Under the pieces are notes generated by a model. It was not told the origin of the DNA, did no database searches, and worked only from the letters and a program-made list of their open reading frames with translations. Both the position numbers and the translations under genes were made by a program. A DNA stretch of 64,000 nt from assembly GCF_050920415.1 (NCBI RefSeq), contig NZ_CP169309.1; one strand, written 5' to 3'. Shown in pieces: positions 21,884 to 54,906 of the stretch; position 1 is the stretch's first letter; each line of letters begins with the position of its first letter. The DNA is from Escherichia coli (GTDB lineage Bacteria > Pseudomonadota > Gammaproteobacteria > Enterobacterales > Enterobacteriaceae).

Positions 21884-22451
21884 CGATCACGGTTATCTGT
21901 AAGTAATAATTATTACAGTAATGCAAAATACCCCTGGCACAAGTTACATCGTTCATCAGTAAAACTTGTGCCAGATCAAATATAATTCCCCCTCTCTCAC
22001 CGCTGAAAATTAATATCTCTTCGGATGAACGGTGTTTTTAATTTCAAAACGCTAACAAAAGTTAATTAACTATTATGTCGCCCACATTATGTGTATTTTT
22101 ACCCACAAATGGGTAGTTAAGAATAATCTATAAACCTGATGATACCTACCCTGAGAACAAAAATTATACCAATAAGTATCAATAAGATAGCAGCAAACAA
22201 AACATTAACATCTGCGTAGTACAAACTATAAACCCATCGCCAGAGAGTATTTCTCTCTGAAAAAACCGCTTATCACAGTGCATAAATTTGCCGCTGCTTT
22301 AATCAGCCAATATTCACTGTGAGGTATTTACTCAAGCCGGTAACGACCAAACGGATATTTAGTCAAGCTCTGAAAACAGTTCATACAAAACAGAACGTGA
22401 CTGTGATCTATTCAGCAAAAATTTAAATAGGATTATCGCGAGGGTTTACAC
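21884..22451 (+). promoter_or_regulatory. dcuB promoter and long untranslated leader
   Basis: About 570 bp AT-rich non-coding region between dcuR and dcuB; established site of DcuR/FNR control; individual sites not resolved. Confidence 0.4.
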
Positions 22452-23792: not shown

Positions 23793-23801
23793 ATGCACTT
23801 T

Positions 23802-23836
23802 GCGTGCCGCCCGTGACTGCGCGGCACGCCATTTTC
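23802..23836 (+). terminator. Stem-loop between dcuB and fumB
   Basis: Inverted repeat gcgtgccgc / gcggcacgc followed by aTTTTcg. Confidence 0.5.
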
Positions 23837-23869
23837 GAATAACAAATACAGAGTTACAGGCTGGAAGCT

Positions 23870-25516: not shown

Positions 25517-25638
25517 CCTCTTCGGCCCAGCGCCTGGCAGCATGCTGCCAGGTGATCCCCCTGGGCCACCTCTTTTGCGATTGTAATTTCACGCTTGCTG
25601 GTGAATAGTCAGTATTTTCCCTGACTTGCGAACTCACC

Positions 25639-26289
25639 ATGACCCGCACACTCAAGCCGTTAATTCTTAACACCGGCGCACTGGCGCTAACGTTAATCCT
25701 GATTTATACCGGCATTTCGGCCAATGACAAACTCACCTGGCTGATGGAAGTGACACCGGTGATTATTGTCGTGCCGCTACTGCTTGCCACCGCTAAACGT
25801 TATCCGTTAACGCCGCTGCTCTATACGCTCATTTTCTTTCACGCCATCATCCTGATGGTCGGCGGGCAATACACCTACGCGAAAGTCCCCGTTGGTTTTG
25901 AGGTGCAGGAATGGCTGGGGTTGAGCCGTAATCCGTATGACAAGCTGGGGCATTTTTTCCAGGGGCTGGTGCCTGCACTGGTGGCGCGAGAAATTCTCGT
26001 TCGCGGGATGTACGTGCGCGGACGTAAAATGGTGGCGTTTCTGGTCTGCTGCGTGGCGCTGGCGATAAGCGCGATGTATGAATTAATCGAGTGGTGGGCA
26101 GCGCTGGCAATGGGTCAGGGAGCGGATGATTTTCTCGGTACCCAGGGCGACCAATGGGACACACAATCCGATATGTTCTGCGCGCTGCTTGGTGCATTAA
26201 CTACGGTGATATTCCTTGCTCGCTTTCATTGCCGCCAGCTACGGCGCTATGGCTTAATCACCAGAGCGCCGGAAGCGATTACCTCTTAA
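25639..26289 (+). CDS. yjdF: Inner-membrane protein YjdF (DUF2238-like)
   Basis: Multi-TM ORF in the conserved position next to fumB; stop TAA at 26287-26289 overlaps the melA stop. Confidence 0.7.
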   Translation: MTRTLKPLILNTGALALTLILIYTGISANDKLTWLMEVTPVIIVVPLLLATAKRYPLTPLLYTLIFFHAIILMVGGQYTYAKVPVGFEVQEWLGLSRNPYDKLGHFFQGLVPALVAREILVRGMYVRGRKMVAFLVCCVALAISAMYELIEWWAALAMGQGADDFLGTQGDQWDTQSDMFCALLGALTTVIFLARFHCRQLRRYGLITRAPEAITS

Positions 26290-27641
26290 CGGTGTAACCA
26301 GCCTGGCAGCCAGTCGCCGTGGGCGGCAATCAGGTCGTCAATAAGAGCATAGATTTCATCAATGCCCAGCACGGCAGCGGTATGTGGGTCCATCATCGCG
26401 GCATGGTAAACACGGTCGCGATTTTCTGTGAGAATGGCTTCCGTCAGCAGCGTCTGTACGTTGATATTGGTTTGCATCAGGGCGGCCAGATGCGAAGGTA
26501 GCGTACCGACTTTGGTCGGCTGAATGCCATTAGCATCAACTAAACAGGCCACTTCCACGCAACATCCTTGTGGCAGGTTATCAATCAAACCATCGTTACG
26601 GACGTTGCCATAAATCACACTCGGCTCGCCAGTCCAGATAGCGTTCATGATTGTGCTGGCATATTCCCGTGACGGTTTAATATCAATCCGGGAGGCGTTC
26701 TTATACTCCTCCAGCTCTTTATGCCAGTTTGCCAATTGTTCGACGCAGCGTTTCGGGTACTCATCCAGCGGCACTTTATAACGCTCAATCAAATCCTCAC
26801 GACCAGGCTTAATAAACCACGGTGTGTATTCAGCAAAATGTTCTGACGATTCCGTGACGAAGTAGCCCAGCTTTTTGAACATTTCATAACGCACAATATT
26901 CTGGCAGCGAGTATTGCCATGAATATTCGGCTTCGGTGCCTGCCCTGCGTCATACGCTGCCAGCAGTTCTGGGTAGAGATTCACGTAACTGCCGTCGGCG
27001 GTTTTGCGCTCCAGTTCCAGGTAAAACGCCATATGGTTGATACCCGCGCAACGGTAACGCAACGTAGCTGGGTCGATATTGAGATCACGCGCCAGCTCTT
27101 CCGCCGTTCCCTGCACCGAATGGCACAGCCCTACCTGTTTGATATGCGGATAGCGGGCATACATCGCCCAGGTATTCATCGCCATTGGGTTAACATAGTT
27201 GAGCATAGTGGCATCGGGGCAGACTTCCGTCATGTCCTCGCAAATTTGCCACAGGTGCGGAATGGTACGTAGCGCGCGCATAATACCGCCCGGCCCCAAC
27301 GTATCGGCAATGGTTTGTTCCAGACCGTGGCGCTTACAGACCTCAAAATCAGTCACCGTGCAAGGTTCATAACCGCCAATCTGAAATGCCACTACGACAA
27401 AATCGGCATCCTGTAAGGCTTCTTTCTGTTGGGTGTGGCAGGTGATTTTGCCACTGGCCCCCGCTGAATCCATCAGCTTGCGCACCACAATGTGCGACTC
27501 TTCCAGGCGGATGGGATCAATGTCCATCAGGGCAATATGCGCCGTTTTTAGCGCCTCGCGATGGAACACATCACCAAGAATATTTTTAACGAAAATCGTC
27601 GAACCAGCGCCGATAAATGTAATTTTAGGTGCAGACATCAT
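26286..27641 (-). CDS. melA: Alpha-galactosidase MelA (GH4 family, 451 aa)
   Basis: MMSAPKITFIGAGSTIFVKNILGDV... N-terminal Rossmann GAGS motif typical of NAD/Mn-dependent family 4 glycosidases; divergent from melR. Confidence 0.93.
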   Translation of the reverse strand: MMSAPKITFIGAGSTIFVKNILGDVFHREALKTAHIALMDIDPIRLEESHIVVRKLMDSAGASGKITCHTQQKEALQDADFVVVAFQIGGYEPCTVTDFEVCKRHGLEQTIADTLGPGGIMRALRTIPHLWQICEDMTEVCPDATMLNYVNPMAMNTWAMYARYPHIKQVGLCHSVQGTAEELARDLNIDPATLRYRCAGINHMAFYLELERKTADGSYVNLYPELLAAYDAGQAPKPNIHGNTRCQNIVRYEMFKKLGYFVTESSEHFAEYTPWFIKPGREDLIERYKVPLDEYPKRCVEQLANWHKELEEYKNASRIDIKPSREYASTIMNAIWTGEPSVIYGNVRNDGLIDNLPQGCCVEVACLVDANGIQPTKVGTLPSHLAALMQTNINVQTLLTEAILTENRDRVYHAAMMDPHTAAVLGIDEIYALIDDLIAAHGDWLPGWLHR

Positions 27642-27923
27642 GCAGATCTCCTGGCTTGCTTGAATAACTTCATCATGGCAGGCGAATCTGCAGAAAACCT
27701 CCGGCTTCCAGGCTGAGCATTCCCATTAACTCAGATCCTGTGTGAAGCATCAGAAAATCTGAGTTTATGGGAATAAATTAGCTGAAAAGCAGAGTTTTCG
27801 GCCTCATGGTACTCGGATGATCCCTTCGCCCCTCAGGCAAGAGGGCGAAAACCGTGCTCCCACTCGCAGTCATATTCCTACACTCCTGCCATAATTCTGA
27901 TATTCCAGGAAAGAGAGTCATCC
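27642..27923. promoter_or_regulatory. Divergent melR / melA promoter region
   Basis: Intergenic region between divergent melA and melR; established location of MelR and CRP sites; sites not individually resolved. Confidence 0.5.
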
Positions 27924-28832
27924 ATGAATACAGATACTTTTATGTGTAGCAGCGACGAAAAACAGACCCGCAGTCCGCTGTCGCTGTATTCGGAATACCA
28001 GCGGATGGAGATTGAGTTTCGCGCACCGCATATCATGCCCACCAGCCACTGGCATGGTCAGGTCGAAGTGAATGTGCCTTTCGATGGCGATGTGGAATAC
28101 CTGATCAACAATGAAAAAGTGAGTATCAATCAGGGACATATCACGCTGTTCTGGGCCTGTACACCGCACCAACTAACAGATACCGGAACCTGTCAGAGCA
28201 TGGCGATTTTTAATCTGCCGATGCATCTGTTTCTCTCCTGGCCGCTGGATAAAGACCTGATTAACCACGTCACTCACGGCATGGTGATTAAATCACTGGC
28301 GACACAGCAACTTAGCCCGTTTGAAGTGCGCCGCTGGCAGCAGGAATTGAACAGTCCGAACGAGCAAATTCGCCAGCTCGCCATTGATGAAATTGGCCTG
28401 ATGCTCAAGCGATTTAGCCTCTCTGGCTGGGAACCGATTCTGGTCAATAAAACCTCGCGCACACACAAAAACAGCGTCTCGCGCCATGCGCAATTTTATG
28501 TCAGCCAGATGCTGGGCTTTATTGCCGAAAACTATGATCAGGCGCTGACCATCAACGATGTGGCTGAGCACGTCAAACTTAACGCCAACTATGCAATGGG
28601 GATATTCCAGCGGGTCATGCAATTGACGATGAAACAGTACATTACCGCGATGCGCATCAACCACGTTCGCGCGTTACTGAGCGATACCGATAAAAGTATT
28701 CTCGATATTGCCCTGACGGCAGGCTTTCGTTCGAGTAGCCGTTTTTACAGCACGTTCGGCAAATATGTCGGCATGTCACCGCAACAATACCGCAAACTTA
28801 GCCAACAGCGCCGCCAGACGTTTCCCGGCTAA
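27924..28832 (+). CDS. melR: AraC-family melibiose operon activator MelR (302 aa)
   Basis: C-terminal AraC-type double HTH (…DIALTAGFRSSSRFYSTFGKYVGMSPQQYR); divergent from melA. Confidence 0.9.
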   Translation: MNTDTFMCSSDEKQTRSPLSLYSEYQRMEIEFRAPHIMPTSHWHGQVEVNVPFDGDVEYLINNEKVSINQGHITLFWACTPHQLTDTGTCQSMAIFNLPMHLFLSWPLDKDLINHVTHGMVIKSLATQQLSPFEVRRWQQELNSPNEQIRQLAIDEIGLMLKRFSLSGWEPILVNKTSRTHKNSVSRHAQFYVSQMLGFIAENYDQALTINDVAEHVKLNANYAMGIFQRVMQLTMKQYITAMRINHVRALLSDTDKSILDIALTAGFRSSSRFYSTFGKYVGMSPQQYRKLSQQRRQTFPG

Positions 28833-43155: not shown

Positions 43156-43187
43156 TTGTATTGCTCAATGTAATATTGGCACATGAT

Positions 43188-43335
43188 CGGTAGGCCGGAT
43201 AAGGCGCTCGCGCCGCATCCGGCTACGGTGCCGACTGCCTGATGCGACGCTCGCGCGTCTTATCAGGCCTACAAATTCTCGCACCATCCGGCAACGGTGC
43301 CTAATGCGACGCTTACCGAGTCTTATCAGCCCCCG
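43188..43335. repeat. REP / BIME cluster (about three REP units in alternating orientation)
   Basis: Units gtaggccggataaggcgctcgcgccgcatccggc, gcctgatgcgacgctcgcgcgtcttatcaggcctac and a third partial unit match the E. coli REP consensus. Confidence 0.75.
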
Positions 43336-43838: not shown

Positions 43839-43970
43839 CCCGCCGGGAGGCCCGCCCTCCCGCACTGTCATCGAATTCCCGTTAACTCTTCATCTGTTAG
43901 TCACTTTTAGTTAACAAAATCGTCACGATAATCCGCCACGATGGAGCCACTTTTTTAGGGAGGCTGCATC

Positions 43971-44759
43971 ATGCAAACGATTATCCGTGTCGAGAAGCTC
44001 GCCAAAACCTTCAATCAGCATCAGGCGCTGCATGCGGTTGATCTGAACATTCATCACGGTGAAATGGTGGCTCTGCTTGGGCCGTCCGGTTCCGGCAAAT
44101 CCACCCTTTTACGTCATTTAAGCGGTTTGATTACCGGCGATAAATCTGCCGGTAGCCATATCGAGCTGCTGGGCCGCACAGTCCAACGCGAAGGCCGCCT
44201 GGCCCGCGATATCCGCAAAAGCCGCGCCAACACCGGCTACATCTTCCAACAATTCAACCTGGTGAATCGCCTGAGCGTACTGGAGAACGTGCTGATTGGC
44301 GCGCTCGGCAGCACGCCATTCTGGCGCACCTGTTTTAGCTACTTCACCCGCGAGCAGAAACAGCGCGCGTTACAGGCGCTGACCCGCGTTGGCATGGTGC
44401 ACTTTGCCCATCAGCGCGTTTCCACCCTCTCCGGCGGACAGCAGCAGCGTGTGGCGATTGCCCGTGCGCTGATGCAGCAGGCGAAGGTGATTCTGGCCGA
44501 TGAACCCATCGCCTCGCTGGACCCGGAATCGGCGCGCATCGTGATGGACACCCTGCGCGACATTAACCAGAACGACGGCATTACCGTGGTCGTCACGCTG
44601 CATCAGGTGGATTACGCCCTGCGCTACTGCGAACGCATCGTCGCCCTGCGCCAGGGGCACGTCTTCTACGACGGCAGCAGCCAACAGTTTGATAACGAAC
44701 GTTTTGACCATCTCTACCGCAGCATTAACCGCGTCGAAGAGAACGCGAAAGCTGCCTGA
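43971..44759 (+). CDS. phnC: Phosphonate ABC transporter ATP-binding protein PhnC
   Basis: Walker [13 protein letters not shown] signature LSGGQQQR, Walker B ILADEP. Confidence 0.93.
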
Positions 44760-44783
44760 CATCCCCATCATTGAGGAAAACGA

Positions 44784-45800
44784 ATGAACGCTAAGATAAT
44801 TGCCTCGCTGGCCTTCACCAGCATGTTCAGCCTCAGCACCCTGTTCAGCCCGGCGCACGCCGAAGAGCAGGAAAAGGCGCTGAATTTCGGCATTATTTCA
44901 ACGGAATCACAGCAAAACCTGAAACCGCAATGGACGCCTTTCCTGCAAGATATGGAGAAGAAACTGGGCGTAAAGGTCAACGCCTTCTTTGCTCCGGACT
45001 ACGCGGGCATTATCCAGGGGATGCGCTTCAACAAAGTGGATATCGCCTGGTACGGCAACCTGTCGGCGATGGAAGCGGTGGATCGCGCCAACGGTCAGGT
45101 CTTCGCCCAGACGGTCGCGGCGGATGGATCGCCGGGTTACTGGAGCGTGTTGATCGTCAACAAAGATAGCCCGATCAACAACCTGAACGATCTGCTGGCC
45201 AAGCGTAAAGATCTCACCTTCGGCAATGGCGATCCTAACTCCACCTCTGGCTTCCTCGTCCCCGGCTACTACGTCTTCGCCAAAAACAATATCTCCGCCA
45301 GCGACTTCAAGCGCACCGTCAACGCCGGGCATGAAACCAACGCCCTCGCCGTCGCCAACAAGCAGGTGGATGTCGCCACCAACAACACTGAAAACCTCGA
45401 CAAGCTGAAAACCTCCGCGCCGGAGAAGCTGAAAGAACTGAAGGTGATCTGGAAATCGCCGCTGATCCCAGGCGATCCGATCGTCTGGCGCAAAAATCTG
45501 TCCGAAACCACCAAAGACAAGATCTACGACTTCTTTATGAACTACGGCAAAACGCCGGAAGAGAAAGCGGTGCTGGAACGCCTGGGCTGGGCGCCGTTCC
45601 GCGCCTCCAGCGACCTGCAACTGGTGCCAATTCGCCAGCTCGCACTGTTTAAAGAGATGCAAAGCGTGAAGGACAACAAAGGGCTGAACGAACAGGACAA
45701 GCTCGCGAAAACCACCGAGATACAGGCGCAACTGGATGACCTGGATCGCCTGAACAACGCGTTAAGCGCGATGAGTTCGGTGAGTAAAGCGGTGCAGTAA
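44784..45800 (+). CDS. phnD: Phosphonate ABC transporter periplasmic binding protein PhnD
   Basis: Signal peptide plus substrate-binding-protein fold; between phnC and phnE. Confidence 0.93.
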   Translation: MNAKIIASLAFTSMFSLSTLFSPAHAEEQEKALNFGIISTESQQNLKPQWTPFLQDMEKKLGVKVNAFFAPDYAGIIQGMRFNKVDIAWYGNLSAMEAVDRANGQVFAQTVAADGSPGYWSVLIVNKDSPINNLNDLLAKRKDLTFGNGDPNSTSGFLVPGYYVFAKNNISASDFKRTVNAGHETNALAVANKQVDVATNNTENLDKLKTSAPEKLKELKVIWKSPLIPGDPIVWRKNLSETTKDKIYDFFMNYGKTPEEKAVLERLGWAPFRASSDLQLVPIRQLALFKEMQSVKDNKGLNEQDKLAKTTEIQAQLDDLDRLNNALSAMSSVSKAVQ

Positions 45801-45813
45801 TGTGCTCGATCGG

Positions 45814-45905
45814 TCCCCTCTCCCTTGAGGGAGAGGGTTAGGGTGAGGGGGGAAATACGCACGCTGATGCCCTCACCCCGGCCCTCTCCCACAGGGAGAG
45901 GGAGA
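45814..45905. repeat. Pair of inverted GC-rich palindromic intergenic elements (boxC-like) between phnD and phnE
   Basis: gtcccctctcccttgagggagagggttagggtgagggg and, in opposite orientation, gccctcaccccggccctctcccacagggagagggag. Confidence 0.7.
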
Positions 45906-45926
45906 AAACATTAAACGGAGCCAAAC

Positions 45927-46706
45927 ATGCAAACCATCACCATCGCCCCACCCAAGCGCAGCTGGTTCTCGCTTCTGAGCTGGGCCATTGTTCTCGCCGT
46001 GCTGGTCGTCTCGTGGCAGGGCGCGGAAATGGCCCCGCTCACGCTGATTAAAGACGGCGGCAACATGGCGACGTTCGCCGCCGACTTCTTCCCGCCCGAT
46101 TTCAGCCAGTGGCAGGATTACCTCACCGAAATGGCCGTCACGCTGCAAATCGCCGTCTGGGGCACTGCGCTGGCAGTCGTTCTCTCCATCCCCTTCGGCC
46201 TGATGAGCGCCGAAAACCTGGTGCCGTGGTGGGTTTACCAGCCCGTTCGCCGCCTGATGGACGCCTGCCGCGCCATTAACGAGATGGTCTTCGCCATGCT
46301 GTTCGTGGTCGCCGTCGGTCTCGGTCCGTTCGCTGGCGTACTGGCGCTGTTTATCCACACCACCGGCGTGCTCTCCAAACTGCTTTCCGAAGCGGTGGAA
46401 GCGATTGAACCCGGCCCGGTGGAAGGCATTCGCGCCACCGGTGCCAATAAGCTCGAAGAGATCCTCTACGGCGTGCTGCCGCAGGTCATGCCGCTACTGA
46501 TTTCCTACTCACTCTATCGTTTCGAATCCAACGTGCGTTCCGCCACCGTTGTTGGCATGGTCGGCGCTGGCGGAATTGGCGTCACGCTGTGGGAAGCGAT
46601 TCGCGGTTTCCAGTTCCAGCAAACCTGCGCCCTGATGGTGCTGATTATCGTCACGGTCAGCCTGCTGGATTTCCTCTCTCAACGGTTGCGTAAGCACTTT
46701 ATCTGA
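45927..46706 (+). CDS. phnE: Phosphonate ABC transporter permease PhnE, uninterrupted frame (259 aa)
   Basis: Single continuous ORF with ABC permease EAA-like loop; no frameshift within the window. Confidence 0.9.
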
Positions 46707-46726
46707 TAAGCGAGGCATTGATATCT

Positions 46727-47452
46727 ATGCACTTGTCTACACCTCCGACCAGCTACCCAACACGCTATCAGGAGATAGCCGCAAAACTTGAGCAGGAGCT
46801 TCGTCAACACTACCGCTGCGGCGACTATCTTCCCGCCGAGCAGCAACTGGCAGCGCGCTTTGAGGTGAATCGCCACACCCTGCGCCGTGCCATCGACCAA
46901 CTGGTGGAAAAAGGCTGGGTACAGCGCCGTCAGGGCATCGGCGTACTGGTGCTGATGCGCCCGTTCGATTACCCGCTCAACGCCCAGGCGCGTTTTAGCC
47001 AGAACCTGCTGGATCAGGGTAGCCATCCCACCAGCGAAAAACTGCTGTCCGTGCTGCGCCCGGCCTCCGGTCACGTCGCTGACGCGCTGGGGATAACCGA
47101 GGGCGAGAACGTTATCCACCTGCGCACCCTGCGCCGGGTCAACGGCGTCGCGCTCTGTTTAATCGACCACTACTTTGCGGACCTCACTCTCTGGCCGACG
47201 CTGCAACGCTTCGACAGCGGCTCGCTGCACGATTTTTTGCACGAGCAAACGGGAATTGCGCTGCGCCGCAGCCAGACGCGGATCAGCGCCCGCCGCGCCC
47301 AGGCCAAAGAGTGCCAGCGTCTTGAAATTCCGAATATGTCGCCGCTGCTGTGCGTGCGCACCCTTAACCACCGTGACGGTGAAAGCAGCCCGGCGGAGTA
47401 CTCCGTCAGCCTGACGCGCGCCGACATGATTGAATTCACCATGGAGCACTGA
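46727..47452 (+). CDS. phnF: GntR-family repressor PhnF
   Basis: N-terminal GntR HTH (YLPAEQQLAARFEVNRHTLRRAIDQL) plus UTRA-like domain; start at ATG 46727. Confidence 0.92.
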   Translation: MHLSTPPTSYPTRYQEIAAKLEQELRQHYRCGDYLPAEQQLAARFEVNRHTLRRAIDQLVEKGWVQRRQGIGVLVLMRPFDYPLNAQARFSQNLLDQGSHPTSEKLLSVLRPASGHVADALGITEGENVIHLRTLRRVNGVALCLIDHYFADLTLWPTLQRFDSGSLHDFLHEQTGIALRRSQTRISARRAQAKECQRLEIPNMSPLLCVRTLNHRDGESSPAEYSVSLTRADMIEFTMEH

Positions 47453-47905
47453 ATGCACGCAGATACCGCGACCCGCCAGCACTGGATGTCCGTGCTGGCG
47501 CACAGCCAACCGGCTGAACTGGCTAACCGCCTTAAAGCGCTAAACATCACCACCGACTATGACATTATCCGCGCCGCCGAAACCGGCCTGGTACAGATTC
47601 AGGCGCGAATGGGTGGCACCGGCGAACGCTTTTTTGCTGGCGACGCTACGCTCACCCGCGCCGCTGTACGCCTTACTGACGGCACGCTCGGCTACAGCTG
47701 GGTGCTGGGGCGCGACAAACAGCACGCCGAACGCTGCGCGCTGATTGACGCGCTGATGCAGCAATCTCGCCACTTTCAAAACTTATCAGAAACCCTTATT
47801 GCCCCGCTGGACGCTGACCGTATGGCACGCATTGCCGCACGCCAGGCCGAAGTGAACGCCAGTCGGGTCGACTTCTTTACGATGGTTCGCGGAGACAACG
47901 CATGA
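47453..47905 (+). CDS. phnG: C-P lyase core complex subunit PhnG
   Basis: Order and size in the phn operon; overlaps phnH start. Confidence 0.9.
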
Positions 47906-48486
47906 CCCTGGAAACCGCTTTTATGCTTCCCGTGCAGGATGCCCAGCACAGTTTTCGTCGCCTGTTAAAGGCAATGAGCGAGCCGGGCGTGATTGTCGCC
48001 CTGCATCAGCTCAAACGCGGCTGGCAGCCGCTGAATATCGCCACCACCAGCGTGCTGCTGACGCTGGCCGATAACGACACGCCGGTGTGGCTTTCCGCGC
48101 CATTAAGTAACGATATCGTCAGCCAGAGCCTGCGTTTTCATACCAACGCCCCGCTGGTCAATCAGCCGGAACAGGCGACCTTCGCAGTGACGGATGAGGC
48201 GATTGCCAGCGAGCAGCTCAACGCCCTTTCCACCGGCACCGCCGTTGCGCCGGAAGCCGGTGCGACGTTGATTTTACAGGTCACCAGCCTGAGCGGCGGA
48301 CGCATGCTGCGCCTCACCGGCGCGGGTATTGCCGAAGAACGGATGATCGCCCCGCAACTGCCGGAGTGCATTCTGCACGAACTCACCGAGCGCCCGCACC
48401 CGTTCCCGCTCGGCATCGACCTGATCCTGACCTGCGGCGAGCGCCTGCTGGCTATTCCGCGAACCACTCATGTGGAGGTGTGCTGA
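47902..48486 (+). CDS. phnH: C-P lyase core complex subunit PhnH
   Basis: Order and size in the phn operon; stop overlaps phnI ATG. Confidence 0.9.
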
Positions 48487-49550
48487 TGTACGTTGCCGTG
48501 AAAGGGGGCGAGAAGGCGATCGACGCCGCCCACGCCCTGCAAGAGAGCCGACGCCGGGTCGATACCGATTTGCCTGAACTGAGCGTCGCCCAGATTGAAC
48601 AGCAGCTTAATCTCGCGGTGGATCGCGTGATGACCGAAGGCGGCATTGCCGACCGCGAACTGGCCGCACTGGCGCTGAAACAGGCCAGTGGCGATAACGT
48701 TGAAGCAATTTTCCTGCTGCGCGCCTACCGCACGACGCTGGCAAAACTGGCGGTAAGCGAGCCGCTCGACACCACCGAGATGCGTCTCGAACGCCGTATC
48801 TCCGCCGTTTATAAAGACATTCCTGGCGGCCAGCTGCTTGGCCCGACCTACGACTACACCCATCGCCTGCTCGATTTCACCCTGCTGGCGAATGGCGAAG
48901 CGCCGACGCTGACCACCACCGACAGCGAGCAAGCCCCATCGCCGCACGTTTTCAGCCTGCTGGCGCGTCAGGGGCTGGCGAAGTTTGAAGAGGATAGCGG
49001 CGCACAGCCGGATGACATCACCCGTACACCGCCGGTTTACCCTTGCTCTCGCGCCTCCCGCCTGCAACAGCTCATGCGCGGCGACGAAGGCTACTTGCTG
49101 GCGCTGGCCTACTCCACCCAGCGTGGTTACGGACGCAATCACCCGTTCGCAGGCGAAATCCGCAGTGGCTATATCGACGTGTCTATTGTGCCGGAAGAGC
49201 TGGGATTTGCGGTGAACGTCGGTGAACTGCTGATGACCGAGTGTGAAATGGTTAACGGTTTTATCGACCAGCCGGATGAGCCGCCGCACTTCACGCGCGG
49301 CTACGGGCTGGTGTTTGGCATGAGCGAGCGCAAAGCGATGGCAATGGCGCTGGTTGACCGCGCTCTACAAGCCCCGGAGTACGGCGAGCACGCGACAGGC
49401 CCGGCGCAGGATGAAGAGTTCGTGCTGGCGCATGCCGACAACGTCGAAGCCGCAGGCTTTGTCTCGCACCTCAAACTCCCGCACTACGTCGATTTCCAGG
49501 CCGAGCTGGAGCTACTCAAACGTCTGCAACAGGAGCAGAACCATGGCTAA
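48486..49550 (+). CDS. phnI: C-P lyase subunit PhnI (ribosyl-triphosphate-forming nucleosidase, 354 aa)
   Basis: Start at ATG 48486 ([13 protein letters not shown]...) inside the longer ORF 48366-49550. Confidence 0.92.
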   Translation: MYVAVKGGEKAIDAAHALQESRRRVDTDLPELSVAQIEQQLNLAVDRVMTEGGIADRELAALALKQASGDNVEAIFLLRAYRTTLAKLAVSEPLDTTEMRLERRISAVYKDIPGGQLLGPTYDYTHRLLDFTLLANGEAPTLTTTDSEQAPSPHVFSLLARQGLAKFEEDSGAQPDDITRTPPVYPCSRASRLQQLMRGDEGYLLALAYSTQRGYGRNHPFAGEIRSGYIDVSIVPEELGFAVNVGELLMTECEMVNGFIDQPDEPPHFTRGYGLVFGMSERKAMAMALVDRALQAPEYGEHATGPAQDEEFVLAHADNVEAAGFVSHLKLPHYVDFQAELELLKRLQQEQNHG

Positions 49551-50388
49551 TCTGAGCGGCTACAACTTTGCGTACCTCGACGAGCAGACCAAACGTATGA
49601 TCCGCCGCGCCATCTTAAAAGCGGTGGCGATCCCCGGTTATCAGGTGCCGTTTGGCGGGCGCGAGATGCCGATGCCATACGGCTGGGGAACCGGCGGCAT
49701 ACAGCTTACCGCCAGTGTGATTGGCGAAAGCGACGTGTTGAAGGTGATTGACCAGGGCGCGGATGACACCACCAACGCCGTATCAATTCGCAACTTTTTC
49801 AAGCGCGTGACCGGGGTAAACACCACTGAACGTACGGATGATGCGACGCTTATCCAGACGCGCCACCGCATCCCCGAAACGCCGCTGACCGAAGATCAGA
49901 TCATTATCTTCCAGGTGCCGATCCCGGAACCGCTGCGCTTTATCGAGCCGCGCGAAACGGAGACCCGCACCATGCACGCGCTGGAGGAGTACGGCGTGAT
50001 GCAGGTGAAACTGTATGAAGATATCGCCCGCTTCGGTCATATCGCCACCACCTACGCCTATCCGGTGAAGGTGAACGGACGCTACGTCATGGACCCATCG
50101 CCGATCCCGAAATTTGATAACCCGAAAATGGACATGATGCCCGCCCTGCAACTGTTCGGCGCGGGGCGTGAGAAGCGTATTTATGCGGTGCCGCCGTTTA
50201 CCCGCGTGGAAAGCCTCGATTTCGACGATCATCCGTTCACCGTTCAGCAGTGGGATGAACCCTGCGCCATCTGCGGATCGACCCACAGCTATCTCGATGA
50301 AGTGGTGCTGGATGACGCCGGAAACCGCATGTTTGTCTGCTCCGATACCGATTATTGCCGCCAACAGAGCGAGGCGAGAAGCCAATGA
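49543..50388 (+). CDS. phnJ: C-P lyase catalytic subunit PhnJ (radical SAM-dependent, 281 aa)
   Basis: MANLSGYNFAYLDEQTKRMIRRAILKAVAIPGYQVPFGG... with C-terminal Cys cluster CAICGSTHSYLDEVVLDDAGNRMFVCSDTDYC. Confidence 0.93.
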   Translation: MANLSGYNFAYLDEQTKRMIRRAILKAVAIPGYQVPFGGREMPMPYGWGTGGIQLTASVIGESDVLKVIDQGADDTTNAVSIRNFFKRVTGVNTTERTDDATLIQTRHRIPETPLTEDQIIIFQVPIPEPLRFIEPRETETRTMHALEEYGVMQVKLYEDIARFGHIATTYAYPVKVNGRYVMDPSPIPKFDNPKMDMMPALQLFGAGREKRIYAVPPFTRVESLDFDDHPFTVQQWDEPCAICGSTHSYLDEVVLDDAGNRMFVCSDTDYCRQQSEARSQ

Positions 50389-51143
50389 ATCAACCGTTAC
50401 TTTCGGTCAATAACCTGACCCACCTTTACGCGCCGGGCAAAGGCTTCAGCGATGTCTCTTTTGATTTATGGCCGGGGGAAGTGCTGGGCATTGTCGGGGA
50501 ATCCGGTTCCGGGAAGACCACGCTGCTGAAATCAATCTCCGCCCGTCTGACACCGCAACAGGGGGAGATTCACTATGAAAACCGTTCCCTCTATGGCATG
50601 AGCGAGGCCGACCGCCGTCGCCTGCTGCGCACCGAATGGGGCGTGGTGCATCAGCATCCGCTCGACGGCCTGCGCCGTCAGGTGTCAGCAGGCGGCAATA
50701 TCGGCGAACGGCTGATGGCGACCGGGGCGCGTCATTACGGCGATATTCGCGCCACCGCGCAGAAGTGGCTGGAGGAGGTGGAGATTCCCTCCAACCGTAT
50801 CGACGACCTGCCGACCACTTTTTCCGGCGGTATGCAGCAGCGTTTGCAGATTGCCCGCAACCTGGTGACGCATCCGAAGCTGGTGTTTATGGATGAACCG
50901 ACCGGCGGGCTGGATGTATCGGTACAGGCGCGCCTGCTCGATCTGCTGCGCGGTCTGGTGGTGGAGCTGAATCTGGCGGTGGTGATTGTCACCCATGATT
51001 TAGGCGTCGCCCGCCTGCTGGCGGACCGTTTGCTGGTGATGAAGCAGGGGCAGGTGGTGGAGAGTGGGTTAACCGACCGCGTACTCGACGACCCGCATCA
51101 TCCGTATACCCAGTTGCTGGTGTCATCGGTTTTGCAGAATTGA
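50385..51143 (+). CDS. phnK: ABC-type ATPase-like C-P lyase accessory protein PhnK
   Basis: Walker A GESGSGKTT; start at ATG 50385. Confidence 0.92.
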   Translation: MNQPLLSVNNLTHLYAPGKGFSDVSFDLWPGEVLGIVGESGSGKTTLLKSISARLTPQQGEIHYENRSLYGMSEADRRRLLRTEWGVVHQHPLDGLRRQVSAGGNIGERLMATGARHYGDIRATAQKWLEEVEIPSNRIDDLPTTFSGGMQQRLQIARNLVTHPKLVFMDEPTGGLDVSVQARLLDLLRGLVVELNLAVVIVTHDLGVARLLADRLLVMKQGQVVESGLTDRVLDDPHHPYTQLLVSSVLQN

Positions 51144-51165
51144 GTTGCAACACTTTGCGCACTGA

Positions 51166-51275
51166 TCCCCTCACCCCGGCCCTCTCCCGGAGGGAGAGGG
51201 AGAAAACCGGCGCAATATTCAACACCGTGCACAAGCGGTCCCCTCGCCCCTTTGGGGAGAGGGTTAGGGTGAGGG
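51166..51275. repeat. Second pair of the same inverted GC-rich palindromic elements, between phnK and phnL
   Basis: tcccctcaccccggccctctcccggagggagagggag and gtcccctcgcccctttggggagagggttagggtgagggg; same family as 45814-45905. Confidence 0.7.
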
Positions 51276-51320
51276 GCAATGTGCGCACCGCTCCCAAACA
51301 TGCGAACCACGAGGCGAAAA

Positions 51321-52001
51321 ATGATTAACGTACAAAACGTCAGTAAAACCTTCATCCTGCACCAGCAAAACGGCGTGCGCCTGCCCGTCTTACAACGCGC
51401 CTCGCTCACCGTCAACGCGGGCGAATGCGTGGTGCTCCACGGTCACTCCGGCAGCGGCAAATCAACTCTGCTACGCTCGCTGTACGCCAACTATCTGCCC
51501 GACGAAGGGCAAATCCAGATCAAACACGGTGACGAATGGGTAGACCTGGTCACCGCGCCAACGCGCAAAGTGGTGGAAATCCGCAAAACCACTGTCGGCT
51601 GGGTAAGCCAGTTTCTGCGCGTCATCCCGCGTATTTCGGCACTGGAAGTGGTGATGCAGCCGCTGCTCGATACCGGCGTTTCGCGTGATGCCTGCGCCGC
51701 TAAAGCCGCGCGTCTGCTCACCCGCCTGAACGTGCCGGAACGTCTGTGGCACCTGGCGCCATCGACCTTCTCCGGCGGCGAACAGCAGCGCGTCAACATC
51801 GCGCGCGGCTTTATCATCGATTACCCCATTCTGCTGCTCGACGAACCTACTGCCTCGCTGGACGCCAAAAACAGCGCCGCGGTGGTGGAACTGATCCGCG
51901 AAGCTAAAACCCGCGGCGCAGCCATCGTCGGCATCTTCCACGACGAAGCCGTACGCAATGACGTCGCCGACCGCCTGCACCCAATGGGAGCCTCTGCATG
52001 A
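51321..52001 (+). CDS. phnL: ABC-type ATPase-like C-P lyase protein PhnL
   Basis: Walker [10 protein letters not shown]; start at ATG 51321 ([11 protein letters not shown]...). Confidence 0.92.
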
Positions 52002-53134
52002 TTATCAATAACGTCAAACTGGTGCTGGAAAACGAAGTGGTACACGGTTCGCTGGAGGTGCAGGACGGCGAAATTCGCGCCTTTGCCGAAAGCCAGAGCC
52101 GCCTGCCAGAAGCGATGGACGGCGAAGGTGGCTGGCTGCTGCCGGGACTGATTGAGCTGCATACCGATAATCTGGATAAATTCTTCACCCCGCGCCCGAA
52201 AGTGGACTGGCCCGCCCACTCGGCGATGAGCAGCCACGATGCGCTGATGGTGGCGAGCGGCATCACCACCGTGCTGGACGCCGTGGCGATTGGCGACGTG
52301 CGCGACGGCGGCGATCGGCTGGAGAATCTGGAAAAGATGATCAACGCCATCGAAGAGACGCAGAAACGCGGCGTCAACCGCGCCGAGCACCGCCTGCACC
52401 TGCGCTGCGAACTGCCGCATCACACTACGCTGCCGCTGTTTGAAAAACTGGTGCAGCGCGAGCCGGTCACGCTGGTGTCGCTAATGGACCACTCACCGGG
52501 CCAGCGCCAGTTCGCCAATCGCGAGAAGTATCGCGAATATTACCAGGGCAAATACTCGCTCACCGATGCGCAGATGCAGCAGTACGAAGAGGAACAACTG
52601 GCGCTTGCCGCACGCTGGTCGCAGCCGAATCGCGAAACCATCGCCGCAATGTGCCGCGCGCGACAAATTGCCCTCGCCAGCCACGATGACGCCACGCACG
52701 CGCACGTTGCCGAATCCCACCAGCTTGGCAGCGTAATCGCCGAATTTCCCACCACGTTCGAAGCGGCGGAAGCTTCGCGCAAGCATGGCATGAATGTATT
52801 GATGGGCGCGCCGAATATTGTGCGCGGCGGTTCGCACTCCGGCAACGTGGCGGCCAGTGAACTGGCACAGCTTGGTCTGCTGGATATCCTCTCTTCCGAC
52901 TACTACCCCGCCAGCCTGCTCGATGCGGCATTCCGCGTCGCCGATGACGAGAGCAACCGCTTTACGCTGCCGCAGGCGGTGAAGCTGGTGACTAAAAATC
53001 CGGCGCAGGCGCTTAATCTTCAGGATCGCGGGGTGATTGGCGAGGGCAAACGCGCCGACCTGGTGCTGGCGCATCGCAAGGGCAACCACATTCATATCGA
53101 TCACGTCTGGCGTCAGGGTAAAAGGGTGTTCTGA
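51998..53134 (+). CDS. phnM: Amidohydrolase-family ribosyl-triphosphate diphosphatase PhnM
   Basis: Metal-dependent amidohydrolase motifs; operon position. Confidence 0.92.
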
Positions 53135-53691
53135 TGACGGGAAAACTGATTTGGTTAATGGGGGCCTCTGGCTCCGGAAAAGACAGTCTGTTGACGGAAC
53201 TCCGCCAGCGGGAACAAACTCAGCTACTGGTAGCGCATCGCTACATCACGCGCGCCGCCAGCGCCGGAAGTGAAAACCATATCGCCCTGAGCGAGCAGGA
53301 GTTTTTTACCCGCGCGGGGCAGAACCTTCTGGCCTTAAGCTGGCACGCCAACGGCCTGTATTATGGCATCGGCGTCGAGATTGACCTCTGGCTGCACGCT
53401 GGATTTGACGTGGTGGTCAACGGCTCACGCGCCCATCTACCGCAGGCGCGGGCGCGCTATCAATCGGCGCTGCTGCCCGTTTGTTTACAGGTTTCGCCAG
53501 AGATCCTGCGCCAGCGCCTGGAAAACCGTGGTCGTGAAAATGCCAGTGAAATTAACGCCCGGCTGGCGCGCGCTGCCCGCTATACTCCTCAGGATTGTCT
53601 TACGCTCAATAATGACGGCAGCCTGCGCCAGTCGGTCGACAAGCTGCTGACGCTGATTGATCTGAAGGAGAAACACCATGCCTGCTTGTGA
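53134..53691 (+). CDS. phnN: Ribose 1,5-bisphosphate phosphokinase PhnN
   Basis: P-loop [10 protein letters not shown]; operon position. Confidence 0.92.
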
Positions 53692-54112
53692 GCTTCGCCC
53701 GGCTACGCAGTACGACACCGACGCAGTTTACGCGCTGATTTGTGAGCTAAAACAGGCGGAGTTTGACCACCACGCGTTTCGCGTGGGCTTTAACGCCAAT
53801 CTGCGCGACCCGAACATGCGCTACCATCTGGCGCTGCTGGATGGCGAAGTTGTCGGCATGATCGGCCTGCATTTGCAGTTTCATCTGCATCATGTCAACT
53901 GGATCGGCGAAATTCAGGAACTGGTGGTGATGCCGCAGGCGCGCGGTCTGAACGTCGGCAGTAAATTACTGGCATGGGCCGAAGAAGAAGCCCGCCAGGC
54001 CGGGGCCGAAATGACCGAGCTTTCCACCAACGTCAAGCGCCACGACGCGCACCGTTTCTATCTGCGCGAAGGCTACGAGCAGAGCCACTTCCGCTTCACC
54101 AAGGCGCTGTAA
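53678..54112 (+). CDS. phnO: GNAT aminoalkylphosphonate N-acetyltransferase PhnO
   Basis: GNAT motif ([26 protein letters not shown]); operon position. Confidence 0.92.
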
Positions 54113-54113
54113 C

Positions 54114-54872
54114 ATGAGCCTGACCCTCACACTTACTGGCACTGGCGGCGCACAGGGTGTTCCCGCATGGGGCTGTGAGTGCGCGGCCTGCGCCAGAGCG
54201 CGGCGCTCACCGCAGTATCGCCGCCAGCCATGCAGCGGCGTCGTGAAGTTTAACGACGCGATCACCCTGATCGACGCCGGGCTGCACGATCTCGCCGATC
54301 GCTGGTCGCCCGGATCGTTCCAGCAGTTTTTGCTGACGCACTACCATATGGATCACGTGCAGGGGCTGTTTCCGCTGCGCTGGGGCGTGGGCGATTCGAT
54401 CCCGGTCTACGGCCCGCCGGATGAACAGGGCTGCGACGATCTGTTTAAACATCCGGGCCTGCTTGATTTCAGCCACACGGTGGAGCCATTTGTGGTGTTT
54501 GATTTGCAGGGATTGCAGGTGACGCCGCTACCGCTTAACCATTCGAAACTCACTTTCGGCTATTTACTGGAAACGGCGCACAATCGGGTGGCGTGGCTGT
54601 CTGACACCGCGGGCCTGCCAGAAAACACGCTGAAATTTTTACTCAATAATCATCCGCAGGTGATGGTGATTGATTGCAGCCATCCGCCGCGCGAGGATGT
54701 GCCGCGTAATCACTGCGATTTAAACACCGTGCTGGCGCTGAATGAGATTATCCGTTCACCGCGCGTGATTCTGACGCACATCAGCCACCAGTTTGATGCG
54801 TGGCTGATGGAAAATACGCTGCCATCGGGGGTTGAGGCGGGGTTTGATGGGATGGAGATTGGGGTGGAGTGA
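54114..54872 (+). CDS. phnP: Metallo-beta-lactamase-fold phosphodiesterase PhnP
   Basis: HxHxDH motif ([10 protein letters not shown]); last gene of the operon. Confidence 0.92.
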
Positions 54873-54906
54873 TGGGTGAGGGGCGATGCCTGCTCTAGAC
54901 TCAACA

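What the first reader, a model, noticed from the sequence alone, without database searches (positions are those of the whole stretch)
51166..51275. Second copy of the same palindromic element pair, between phnK and phnL
The 177-bp phnK-phnL gap contains tcccctcaccccggccctctcccggagggagagggag and gtcccctcgcccctttggggagagggttagggtgagggg, near-identical to the phnD-phnE elements but with a longer spacer between them. Two insertions of the same repeat family in one operon suggest a small dispersed repeat with insertion activity or a selected structural role.
Basis: seen in the sequence. Interest (0 to 1): 0.35.

Follow-up and report, generated by a model that had tools for sequence, protein, structure and literature searches.

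The report
BoxC palindromic repeats in phn operon
The two GC-rich palindromes between phnK and phnL are copies of BoxC, a long-known dispersed repeat of E. coli, so the finding is real but ordinary; the one mildly interesting point is that other strains carry the unrelated REP repeat in exactly the same two gaps of the operon.

Summary
The quoted strings lie at 51166-51202 and 51238-51276 in the 177-nt phnK-phnL gap. Together with the two phnD-phnE units they give four hits to a 21-nt family pattern, against 0 expected.

They are BoxC elements (also called PIT or TMECO): C-block, loop, G-block, TTA or CCG, G-block. One unit is 100% identical to three K-12 copies. Each gap holds one type A (TTA) and one type B (CCG) unit in inverted orientation, as published for K-12 pairs.

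The phnK-L pair is not simply the phnD-E pair with a longer spacer. It is head-to-head with a ~40-nt linker; the phnD-E pair is tail-to-tail with an 18-nt linker.

Among 5,426 complete E. coli genomes:
- 542 carry the phnK-L pair.
- 352 carry the full phnD-E pair.
- About 986 carry a collapsed single-hairpin phnD-E allele.
- The rest, including K-12, carry REP/BIME elements in the same slots.

Other genera show empty, REP-filled or BoxC-filled slots.

Best reading: a non-autonomous palindromic repeat sitting in a permissive slot between a stop codon and the next Shine-Dalgarno sequence. It folds into a long mRNA hairpin, and a REP-like effect on the mRNA is possible but untested. The family is already known. 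Interest is low.

The parts
50385..51143 (+). phnK coding sequence; stop TGA at 51141-51143
   Evidence: Annotation of the 100% identical record NZ_CP169399.1; ORF list; stop codon read directly.
51144..51166 (-). Left outer flank of the composite. It is the conserved 3' extension of the type B unit (read on the - strand: ATCAGTGCGCAAAGTGTTGCAAC) and begins directly after the phnK stop codon.
   Evidence: Alignment of 14 type B units gives a 3' flank consensus cAtcaGcgcGCaC. This flank forms part of inverted-repeat arm I1, 51156-51188.
51167..51200 (-). BoxC/TMECO unit, type B (CCG second loop). On the - strand it reads CCCTCTCCCTCCGGGAGAGGGCCGGGGTGAGGGG.
   Evidence: Pattern hit. 91-92% identical to K-12 TMECO #18, #1 and #4. 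Regex unit call.
51201..51240 (.). Head-to-head linker ('L2'), 40 nt: AGAAAACCGGCGCAATATTCAACACCGTGCACAAGCGGTC. It is made of the conserved 5' extensions of the B and A units.
   Evidence: The same linker lies between head-to-head units at an unrelated locus in strain ws5-3 (L088), at phnK-L in Z1322HEC0010 (L090), and between tandem composites in Pseudocitrobacter (L008).
51241..51276 (+). BoxC/TMECO unit, type A with one mismatched triplet ('A mm', TTA second loop): CCCTCGCCCCTTTGGGGAGAGGGTTAGGGTGAGGGG.
   Evidence: 100% identical to K-12 TMECO #7, #11 and #15 (Table 1 of PMC4666352). Pattern hit.
51277..51302 (+). Right outer flank of the composite: the 3' extension of the A unit, CAATGTGCGCACCGCTCCCAAACATG.
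   Evidence: Type A 3' flank consensus ...GcgcgCaC. Part of inverted-repeat arm I1, 51255-51287. This stretch is absent from the K-12 REP allele.
51303..51320 (+). Native spacer and Shine-Dalgarno sequence of phnL (CGAACCACGAGGCGAAAA). It is shared by the BoxC and REP alleles and is unpaired in the predicted mRNA fold.
   Evidence: Allele comparison; centroid folds.
51321..52001 (+). phnL coding sequence
   Evidence: Annotation; ATG read directly.
45801..45815 (+). 5' extension of the phnD-E type A unit (TGTGCTCGATCGGTC). It starts directly after the phnD stop codon TAA.
   Evidence: The same end is seen in the K-12 hrpB-mrcB composite and in L008.
45816..45850 (+). BoxC unit, type A, in the phnD-phnE gap
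45851..45868 (.). Tail-to-tail linker ('L1'), 18 nt: GGAAATACGCACGCTGAT
   Evidence: Homologous linker in K-12 hrpB-mrcB, Pseudocitrobacter, Leclercia and Kluyvera.
45869..45902 (-). BoxC unit, type B, in the phnD-phnE gap. On the - strand it reads CCCTCTCCCTGTGGGAGAGGGCCGGGGTGAGGGC, identical to K-12 TMECO #1 and #4.
   Evidence: One search gives the exact string position. Comparison with Table 1 of PMC4666352. In one search a one-base offset in my coordinates produced 97%.
45903..45909 (-). 5' extension of the B unit (AGAAAAC on the + strand), which is the end of the phnD-E composite
54873..54890 (+). Footprint (TGGGTGAGGGGCGATGCC) of a third BoxC site directly after the phnP stop codon. A full inverted pair sits here in other strains.
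   Evidence: Comparison with L090. K-12 TMECO #22 lies between yjdP and phnP.

Best explanation
The phnK-phnL gap holds a composite of two BoxC elements (also called PIT or TMECO). One type B unit lies on the minus strand and one type A unit on the plus strand. They are arranged head-to-head around a conserved ~40-nt linker, with conserved outer flanks, giving about 159 bp in total (51144-51302). The composite fills the whole space between the phnK stop codon and the native spacer and Shine-Dalgarno sequence of phnL.

BoxC is a known, non-coding, non-autonomous palindromic repeat family of Enterobacteriaceae.

Shown here:
- Family identity.
- The A+B inverted-pair rule holds in both gaps.
- The units, linkers and flanks recur at unrelated loci.
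- The composite is one of several alternative alleles of this slot. Other E. coli carry REP/BIME there, and other genera have an empty 7-20-nt gap, their own REPs, or BoxC arrays.
- The phnD-E pair decays by deletion between its two direct CCCTCTCCC repeats, leaving a single hairpin.

Inferred: the element spreads and turns over like other bacterial intergenic palindromes, by an unknown copy or recombination mechanism, and persists wherever a structured insert is tolerated. In practice this means between a stop codon and the next ribosome-binding site. On the phn mRNA the pair folds into one long, imperfect hairpin and leaves the phnL Shine-Dalgarno sequence free. Any phenotypic effect is therefore most likely REP-like: a barrier to 3'-to-5' decay that favours the upstream message segment. 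It is unlikely to act as a terminator or promoter.

My probabilities: identity as BoxC >0.95; essentially neutral or selfish passenger about 0.55; a real REP-like effect on the mRNA about 0.3.
For: Motif and statistics: four perfect hits against 0 expected.

Family identity:
- KL_A is identical to K-12 TMECO #7, #11 and #15. The other units are 91-97% identical to listed copies (Table 1 of PMC4666352).
- A+B inverted pairing in both gaps matches the published rule.
- The reverse complement of the phnD-E composite matches the K-12 hrpB-mrcB pair across units and both outer ends; the tail-to-tail linker is only partly alike.
- The phnK-L composite is about 87-89% identical over 125-133 nt to non-phn loci in other strains (H49-H52; L088).
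- Conserved unit flanks and linkers appear in the alignment of 31 units.

Population:
- 542 of 5,426 genomes carry the phnK-L pair.
- 352 carry the full phnD-E pair.
- 1,338 carry a full or collapsed phnD-E allele.
- K-12 carries REP/BIME in both gaps.
- Alleles at the two gaps occur in all four combinations among the four haplotypes read.

Other genera: empty phnK-L sites have the stop codon directly followed by the Shine-Dalgarno sequence. Filled sites hold REP or BoxC.

RNA folds:
- phnK-L: -90.5 kcal/mol, z = -5.5, Shine-Dalgarno unpaired.
- phnD-E: -76 kcal/mol, z = -6.3.
- K-12 REP allele: -63.6 kcal/mol, z = -7.4.

No terminator-like or promoter-like site lies on the sense strand at the elements. 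No Rfam family matches. Published tests found no promoter or terminator activity and no triplex in vivo (PMC4666352).
Against: - No mechanism of BoxC mobility is known. I saw no target-site duplication or terminal signature at either phn site, so 'insertion' is inferred only from presence/absence.
- The slot preference could reflect selection for a structured spacer rather than mere tolerance. Expanded gaps (>=50 nt) occur in 13 of 16 phnD-E and 12 of 32 phnK-L junctions, but in only 0-2 loci at each of the other junctions.
- No expression data were available for any BoxC-bearing strain.
- Population counts come from BLAST coverage classes, not from reading every allele.
Confidence: 0.85

Rival explanations
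1. The BoxC pairs, and the REP pairs that replace them in other strains, are selected and interchangeable RNA modules. A long hairpin placed between a stop codon and the next Shine-Dalgarno sequence would protect the upstream mRNA segment from 3'-to-5' exonucleases, or be cut by RNase III. That would set phnCD above phnE-onward and phnG-K above phnL-P, as REPs do at malE-malF.
For: - Expanded gaps are confined to phnD-E (13 of 16 are >=50 nt) and phnK-L (12 of 32). The other junctions show 0-2 loci each.
- phnD encodes the periplasmic binding protein, the classical position of REP stabilisers. This rests on established knowledge of malE-malF and hisJ-hisQ, not on a test here.
- Two unrelated repeat families fill exactly the same slot and both leave the Shine-Dalgarno sequence free.
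- Every allele folds far better than shuffles, with z from -3.8 to -7.4.
- The collapsed phnD-E allele still keeps a perfect 9-bp hairpin.
Against: - Many genera have an empty phnK-L junction of 7-20 nt.
- The phnD-E composite is in the opposite orientation in Leclercia and E. asburiae.
- PIT/BoxC elements showed no terminator or promoter activity and no effect on RNA polymerase in published tests (summarised in PMC4666352).
- The slot preference is equally explained by these being the only junctions where genes do not overlap or abut.
Confidence: 0.3
2. The elements act at the DNA level. The G-rich strand folds into an intrastrand triplex when single-stranded, stalls replication, and makes these gaps hotspots of rearrangement. 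On this reading the polymorphism is a consequence of the structure.
For: - The three-block motif is intact in all four units.
- A stable triplex of the isolated strand was shown in vitro, and TMECO loci are more variable than control loci (PMC4666352).
- The phn gaps show several alleles, including a slippage-type 66-bp deletion between direct CCCTCTCCC repeats and a deleted third site after phnP.
Against: - No triplex was detected in duplex DNA or by in vivo DMS footprinting (PMC4666352).
- The collapse is explained by ordinary slippage between 9-bp direct repeats inside a palindrome.
- REP-bearing alleles of the same gaps are equally replaceable.
- The whole phn operon is unusually diverse, not only the gaps.
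Confidence: 0.15
3. BoxC A+B doublets are REPIN-like units: two inverted repeats forming one long hairpin, mobilised in trans by a Y1 (RAYT-type) or other transposase that has not been identified.
For: - Doublet architecture with a long imperfect hairpin.
- Defined unit flanks and two linker types in an alternating, BIME-like mosaic.
- Whole composites recur at unrelated loci.
- Tandem amplification in Pseudocitrobacter.
Against: - No GTAG or CGTC tag at the unit ends (read directly from the alignment).
- No target-site duplication.
- No associated transposase is known, and none was searched for here.
- Copy number is low, about 20-30 per genome.
Confidence: 0.1
4. The resemblance among the four units is chance similarity between GC-rich stretches, or the hairpins are ordinary intrinsic terminators or internal promoters.
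For: Single units fold no better than composition-matched shuffles, with z from -0.6 to -1.75.
Against: - Four perfect 21-nt pattern hits against 0 in 100 shuffles.
- One unit is identical to published K-12 copies.
- No T-run follows the hairpins on the sense strand, and no promoter-like site was found there.
Confidence: 0.01

Closest known systems
BoxC / PIT (potential intrastrand triplex) / TMECO elements of E. coli (Bachellier et al. 1990s; Hoyne et al. 2000; Holder et al. 2015, PMC4666352)
   Same: - The same three-block motif, with TTA (type A) or CCG (type B) as the second loop.
- One unit is 100% identical to three K-12 copies.
- Strictly intergenic.
- Inverted pairs always combine A with B.
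- Both tail-to-tail and head-to-head arrangements exist in K-12.
- Pairs collapse to a single hairpin in some strains, the published 'palindrome effect'.
   Different: Nothing essential differs. These two loci are not BoxC sites in K-12, which has REP/BIME there. I found no mention of phnD, phnE, phnK or phnL in the held text or supplements of the 2015 paper; one supplement was truncated. The conserved unit flanks and the two linker types extend the element beyond the 34-37-nt TMECO core, consistent with the older 56-bp BoxC definition.
REP / BIME elements (repetitive extragenic palindromes; bacterial interspersed mosaic elements)
   Same: - They occupy exactly the same two slots in K-12 and most E. 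coli.
- They come as inverted pairs that fold into one long hairpin.
- They show an alternating-orientation mosaic with specific linkers.
- They are polymorphic among strains.
   Different: The sequence is unrelated: there is no GCCGGATGCGGCG / GTAGGTCGGATAAG consensus and no GTAG tag. REPs have a cognate RAYT transposase and documented roles in mRNA stability, gyrase and IHF binding. BoxC has neither.
REPINs (REP doublets forming hairpins; Bertels & Rainey 2011, PMC3116915, which I found in a search but did not read)
   Same: An inverted doublet forming a long imperfect hairpin, dispersed in intergenic DNA.
   Different: No associated RAYT is known, and copy number is much lower.
MITEs
   Same: Small, non-coding, palindromic, and present or absent among strains.
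   Different: No terminal inverted repeats bounded by a target-site duplication were seen at either phn site.

Membership tests
BoxC / PIT / TMECO | Three-block motif: CCCTC(T/G)CCC(C), 3-5-nt loop, GGG(G)AGAGGG, 3-nt loop, GGGTGAGGG(G) | tested here: met
   Four perfect pattern hits. Full-unit regex hits. 91-100% identity to K-12 units in Table 1 of PMC4666352.
BoxC / PIT / TMECO | The second loop defines type A (TTA) or type B (CCG), and inverted pairs always combine one A with one B | tested here: met
   phnD-E is A(+)/B(-) and phnK-L is B(-)/A(+). The rule is stated in PMC4666352.
BoxC / PIT / TMECO | Strictly intergenic location | tested here: met
   Both pairs lie between a stop codon and the next gene's Shine-Dalgarno sequence.
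BoxC / PIT / TMECO | Dispersed, multi-copy in the genome | tested here: met
   The gap query finds a median of 5 and up to 13 places per E. coli genome. There are 23 listed K-12 copies. Five K-12 pairs were fetched and read.
BoxC / PIT / TMECO | Full element of about 56 bp, with conserved sequence beyond the core | tested here: inconclusive
   Conserved 5' and 3' flanks are seen in 17 type A and 14 type B units. The original BoxC consensus (Bachellier) could not be read. The 56-bp figure comes only from PMC2267715.
BoxC / PIT / TMECO | The G-rich strand folds into an intrastrand purine-motif triplex | not testable with these tools
   ViennaRNA does not model triplexes. Folds show only that the C-block can pair with either G-block. 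In vitro evidence is published for near-identical sequences (PMC4666352).
REP / BIME | REP consensus (GCCGGATGCGGCG... / GTAGGTCGGATAAG...) with a GTAG tag | tested here: not met
   Neither window gap contains a REP motif, by direct reading; the REP regex was applied only to the fetched loci, not the window. The K-12 alleles of the same gaps do contain it.
REP / BIME | Alternating orientation of units joined by specific linker motifs (mosaic) | tested here: met
   Two linker classes, L1 (tail-to-tail) and L2 (head-to-head), recur across loci and alternate in Pseudocitrobacter arrays. This is a resemblance in architecture only.
REPIN | Cognate RAYT transposase in the genome | not tested
   No search for a BoxC-associated transposase was made, and none is reported in the papers read.
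Intrinsic terminator | GC-rich hairpin followed by a T-run on the transcribed strand | tested here: not met
   No sense-strand terminator-like site lies at either gap. The only nearby hit is on the - strand at 51227-51208.
MITE | Terminal inverted repeats flanked by a target-site duplication | tested here: not met
   Comparison of filled, REP-filled and empty junctions shows no duplicated flank.
Any Rfam RNA family | Covariance-model match at or above the gathering score | tested here: not met
   No match at the gathering threshold. At E<=1 there are only spurious miRNA-hairpin matches, all far below gathering score.

The most novel reading that the evidence does not exclude
BoxC doublets and REP/BIME doublets are functionally interchangeable hairpin cassettes. 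On this reading they are recurrently recruited, and retained by selection, at the same two intercistronic slots of the phn operon (after the binding-protein gene phnD and between phnK and phnL) across Enterobacteriaceae. They would set segmental mRNA stability or processing. The REP/BoxC polymorphism within E. coli would then be allelic replacement of one solution by another, and would give BoxC its first function.
Probability: 0.15. Interest if true: 0.5.

Novelty: already known. Interest (0 to 1): 0.2.

Why it matters
In itself it matters little. It is another pair of copies of a repeat family described in the 1990s and characterised again in 2000-2002 and 2015.

Its modest value is as a clean natural experiment. 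In one operon, two stop-to-Shine-Dalgarno slots exist in E. coli as a REP allele, a BoxC-pair allele or a collapsed-hairpin allele, in all combinations among the strains read. Related genera add empty junctions. This offers ready-made near-isogenic material to ask whether BoxC does anything to an mRNA, whether it is equivalent to REP, and how such palindromes are gained, replaced and lost.

Tried and rejected
- **Rfam.** At gathering threshold over the whole window, and at E<=1 over 45700-51400, there is nothing at the elements except spurious miRNA-hairpin matches.
- **Terminator or promoter.** The scan found no sense-strand site at either gap.
- **Single-unit folds.** They are no better than composition-matched shuffles. 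Only the pairs are exceptional.
- **Target-site duplications or transposon-like ends.** I compared BoxC, REP and empty junctions and found none.
- **Literature.**
  - No paper in the held library mentions REP or BoxC at phnK-phnL.
  - The 2015 TMECO paper and its held supplements mention only the phnP-yjdP site.
  - The Bachellier 1997 paper, which I recalled might describe REP-to-BoxC replacement, is not held. I could therefore not check whether such replacement was already reported.
  - A citable open copy of the REP/stop-codon/tmRNA work (Liang, Rudd & Deutscher 2015, from my own memory) was not found.
- **Single imported haplotype.** I considered whether the BoxC alleles mark one imported haplotype. 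I rejected this because the window, L089, L090 and K-12 differ by 3-6% from each other everywhere in the operon, and the gap alleles assort independently.
- **Outgroups.** The ancestral state within Escherichia is therefore not resolved.

Full report
**1. What is in the sequence**

The window is E. coli. Positions 51000-51450 are 100% identical to strain MFDS1022581, NZ_CP169399.1. The phn operon (phnC to phnP) lies on the + strand.

phnK ends with TGA at 51141-51143 and phnL starts with ATG at 51321, so the gap is 177 nt.

A 21-nt pattern taken from them, GGGAGAGGGNNNGGGTGAGGG, hits four times in the 64-kb window with no mismatch. Two hits are in the phnD-phnE gap and two in the phnK-phnL gap. 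None appeared in any of 100 dinucleotide-preserving shuffles. Core units are 78-91% identical to each other.

**2. What the units are**

A full-text search for the core GGGAGAGGG led to Holder et al. 2015 (PMC4666352). That paper lists 23 'TMECO' elements in E. coli K-12 MG1655 and equates them with BoxC (1990s) and with the PIT elements of Hoyne and Maher. An independent survey lists BoxC as a known E. coli family of 56 bp and 32 copies (PMC2267715).

The motif is a C-block, a loop, a G-block, a 3-nt second loop and a second G-block. The second loop is TTA in type A and CCG in type B.

| Unit | Window position | Strand | Type | Match to K-12 copies |
|---|---|---|---|---|
| phnK-L A | 51241-51276 | + | A mm | 100% to #7, #11, #15 |
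| phnK-L B | 51167-51200 | - | B | 91-92% to #18, #1, #4 |
| phnD-E A | 45816-45850 | + | A | matches #2 except at its last base |
| phnD-E B | 45869-45902 | - | B | identical string to #1, #4 |

Holder et al. report that K-12 has five inverted pairs and that each combines one A unit with one B unit. Both phn pairs obey that rule.

**3.

The two pairs are arranged differently.
- phnD-E is A(+) then B(-). The G-rich tails face each other across an 18-nt linker.
- phnK-L is B(-) then A(+). The C-rich heads face each other across a 40-nt linker.

Both arrangements occur in K-12. Four pairs are tail-to-tail (hrpB-mrcB, fepB-entC, ygfF-gcvP, alx-sstT) and one is head-to-head (lldD-trmL).

The elements are larger than the 34-37-nt core.
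- The reverse complement of the phnD-E composite matches the K-12 hrpB-mrcB composite through both units and both outer ends, from TGTGCTCGATCGGTC... to ...AGAAAAC; the tail-to-tail linker between the units is only partly alike.
- The phnK-L composite matches non-phn loci in other strains at about 87-89% over 125-133 nt (H49-H52). One example lies between a glycosyltransferase gene and a lysine-N-methylase gene near flgN in strain ws5-3.

I aligned 17 type A and 14 type B units with their flanks. Both types have conserved 5' and 3' extensions. These extensions make up two linker classes:
- L1 (tail-to-tail): ...GCGCAC..CTGATG.
- L2 (head-to-head): AGAAAACCGGCGC.ATATTCAACACCG.GCACAATCGGTC.

In Pseudocitrobacter faecalis the phnD-E gap holds A-L1-B-L2-A-L1-B. 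BoxC clusters therefore form an alternating mosaic built like BIMEs. The phnK-L element is the B-L2-A register of this mosaic and the phnD-E element is the A-L1-B register.

**4. The same slots hold other things in other strains**

In K-12 the phnK-L gap is 110 nt and holds a classical inverted REP pair (GCCGGATGCGGCGTAAACGCCTTATCCGGCCTAC ... GTAGGTCGGATAAGACGCGTCAGCGTCGCATCCGAC). The phnD-E gap also holds a REP pair. Homology between the REP and BoxC alleles stops at the stop codon on the left and resumes at CGAACCACGAGGCGAAAAATG on the right.

Counts among 5,426 complete E. coli genomes:

| Allele | Genomes | Source |
|---|---|---|
| phnK-L BoxC composite | 542 | |
| Full phnD-E BoxC composite | 352 | |
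| Collapsed 60-nt phnD-E allele | about 986 (1,338 minus 352) | |

In the collapsed allele, the 66 nt between the two direct CCCTCTCCC repeats are deleted. This leaves a single hairpin, CCCTCTCCC-ACA-GGGAGAGGG, with both outer flanks intact (L089). This is the 'palindrome effect' described by Holder et al..

The alleles at the two gaps assort independently among the four haplotypes I read:

| Strain | phnD-E | phnK-L |
|---|---|---|
| Window | BoxC | BoxC |
| Z1322HEC0010 (L090) | REP | BoxC |
| 32A22CPO009 (L089) | collapsed BoxC | REP |
| K-12 | REP | REP |

A third BoxC site lies directly after phnP. It is full in K-12 (#22) and in L090, but in the window it is reduced to the footprint TGGGTGAGGGGCGATGCC at 54873-54890.

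**5. Other genera**

I fetched 80 loci encoding PhnK relatives and measured the intercistronic gaps.

Across the 80 fetched loci the phnK-L gap is typically about 7-35 nt. In several enterobacterial loci with the shortest gaps the stop codon is followed directly by the Shine-Dalgarno sequence. Examples are Citrobacter sp. FP75 (CTAAGAGGCCAACATG) and Leclercia (CTAAGAGGCGAACATG).

Expanded phnK-L gaps hold one of two things:
- The genus's own REPs, in Enterobacter, Pluralibacter, Citrobacter werkmanii and Cedecea.
- BoxC, in Pseudocitrobacter faecalis, where the gap is 298 nt with four hairpins.

The phnD-E gap holds:
- BoxC pairs in Kluyvera, in the same orientation as here.
- BoxC pairs in Leclercia and Enterobacter asburiae, in the opposite orientation.
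- REPs in Citrobacter and Cedecea.

Among 32 Enterobacterales loci, gaps of at least 50 nt occur as follows:

| Junction | Loci with gap >=50 nt |
|---|---|
| phnD-E | 13 of 16 |
| phnK-L | 12 of 32 |
| phnC-D | 1 of 15 |
| phnE-F | 2 of 10 |
| phnJ-K | 0 of 32 |
| phnL-M | 0 of 32 |

**6. How it most likely works**

On the phn mRNA each pair is predicted to fold into one long imperfect hairpin.

| Allele | Energy (kcal/mol) | z-score | Source |
|---|---|---|---|
| phnK-L BoxC pair | -90.5 | -5.5 | |
| phnD-E BoxC pair | -76 | -6.3 | |
| K-12 REP allele, phnK-L | -63.6 | -7.4 | |
| Collapsed phnD-E allele | -30.1 | -3.8 | |

The phnL Shine-Dalgarno sequence is unpaired in both phnK-L folds.

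Single units reach -18 to -21.5 kcal/mol but are not better than composition-matched shuffles. No T-run follows the hairpins on the sense strand, and no promoter-like site is present there. No Rfam family matches.

Published work on near-identical units reports the following (PMC4666352):
- A stable intrastrand triplex forms on the isolated G-rich strand in vitro.
- No triplex signal is seen in duplex DNA or by in vivo DMS footprinting.
- There is no promoter or terminator activity.
- Local sequence variability is elevated.

My reading is that this is a non-autonomous palindromic repeat. It persists where a structured insert is tolerated, between a stop codon and the next ribosome-binding site. 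It is replaced or lost by recombination and by slippage. If it has any effect, the most likely one is REP-like protection of the upstream message segment. That step is inference. The position of phnD, a binding-protein gene, parallels malE-malF, which I take from established knowledge and did not test here.

Three observations argue against an obligatory function: empty junctions exist in other genera, the composite occurs in both orientations, and the collapsed allele is common.

**7. Comparison with known families, and verdict**

Every testable defining feature of BoxC/PIT/TMECO is met. The triplex itself cannot be tested with these tools.

The elements are not REPs, because the consensus is absent. 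They do share the REP slot, doublet hairpin and mosaic architecture. They lack the target-site duplication of MITEs, and no transposase is known for them.

The family, the A+B pairing rule, both arrangements and the collapse phenomenon are all published. The finding is therefore already known in kind.

I did not find three points in the literature I could access:
- REP and BoxC alternate at the same two phn slots.
- Expansion in Enterobacterales phn operons is restricted to those slots.
- BoxC clusters have a BIME-like linker mosaic.

The older Bachellier papers, which may cover these points, could not be read.

Interest is low (0.2).

Noticed in passing
window 43187-43290 (Rfam hit at 43193-43269, +): A single REP325/naRNA4 unit (RF02564, 99 bits) lies between yjdM and yjdN. 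K-12 has about five tandem ~100-bp copies at the same place, so this array varies in copy number between strains.
   Followed up: partly
window 54873-54890: TGGGTGAGGGGCGATGCC, directly after the phnP stop codon, is the footprint of a third BoxC site. A full inverted pair sits here in strain Z1322HEC0010 (L090 9873-10018), and K-12 has TMECO #22 here. In the window the phnP-yjdP gap is only 34 nt.
   Followed up: yes
window about 43900-54900 (phn operon), compared with L001, L089, L090 and L008: The phn operon is unusually diverse. Four E. coli haplotypes differ by 3-6% pairwise over 5-9 kb. The Pseudocitrobacter faecalis operon is 92-94% identical to the window operon (about 90-94% to the other E. 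coli haplotypes), while its flanking DNA is only 74-80% identical. This suggests deep haplotypes and transfer of the operon between genera.
   Followed up: partly
L008-L039 (Enterobacterales phn loci): Expanded intercistronic gaps are confined to phnD-E and phnK-L and are filled by genus-specific REPs or by BoxC. phnJ-K and phnL-M are never expanded, and phnC-D and phnE-F rarely.
   Followed up: yes
L008 1791-2043 and 7259-7558 (Pseudocitrobacter faecalis): BoxC is tandemly amplified in both phn gaps. The phnD-E gap holds two complete A-B composites. The phnK-L gap holds four hairpins, of which the two internal ones have lost the third G-block.
   Followed up: partly
E. coli plasmid records, e.g. 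NZ_CP074792.1 1625-1664 (H20): A few BoxC-unit matches lie on plasmids: 12-16 of 13,771-28,421 places, depending on the query. The 2015 paper stated that the motif was not found on plasmids.
   Followed up: no
L013 about 658-723 (Enterobacter asburiae phnD-E gap): The BoxC pair is interrupted by NN in the draft assembly. This suggests that these palindromes break or collapse short-read assemblies, which would bias presence/absence counts from draft genomes.
   Followed up: no
L001 11282 (K-12 phnE1 annotated start), compared with window 45927: The K-12 annotation starts the phnE1 pseudogene at an ATG inside the REP pair (ATGCCGGATGCGG...). The start conserved in other strains and genera is the ATG after ACGGAGCCAAAC. 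The K-12 phnD-E gap is therefore about 105 nt, not the 54 nt implied by the annotation.
   Followed up: partly
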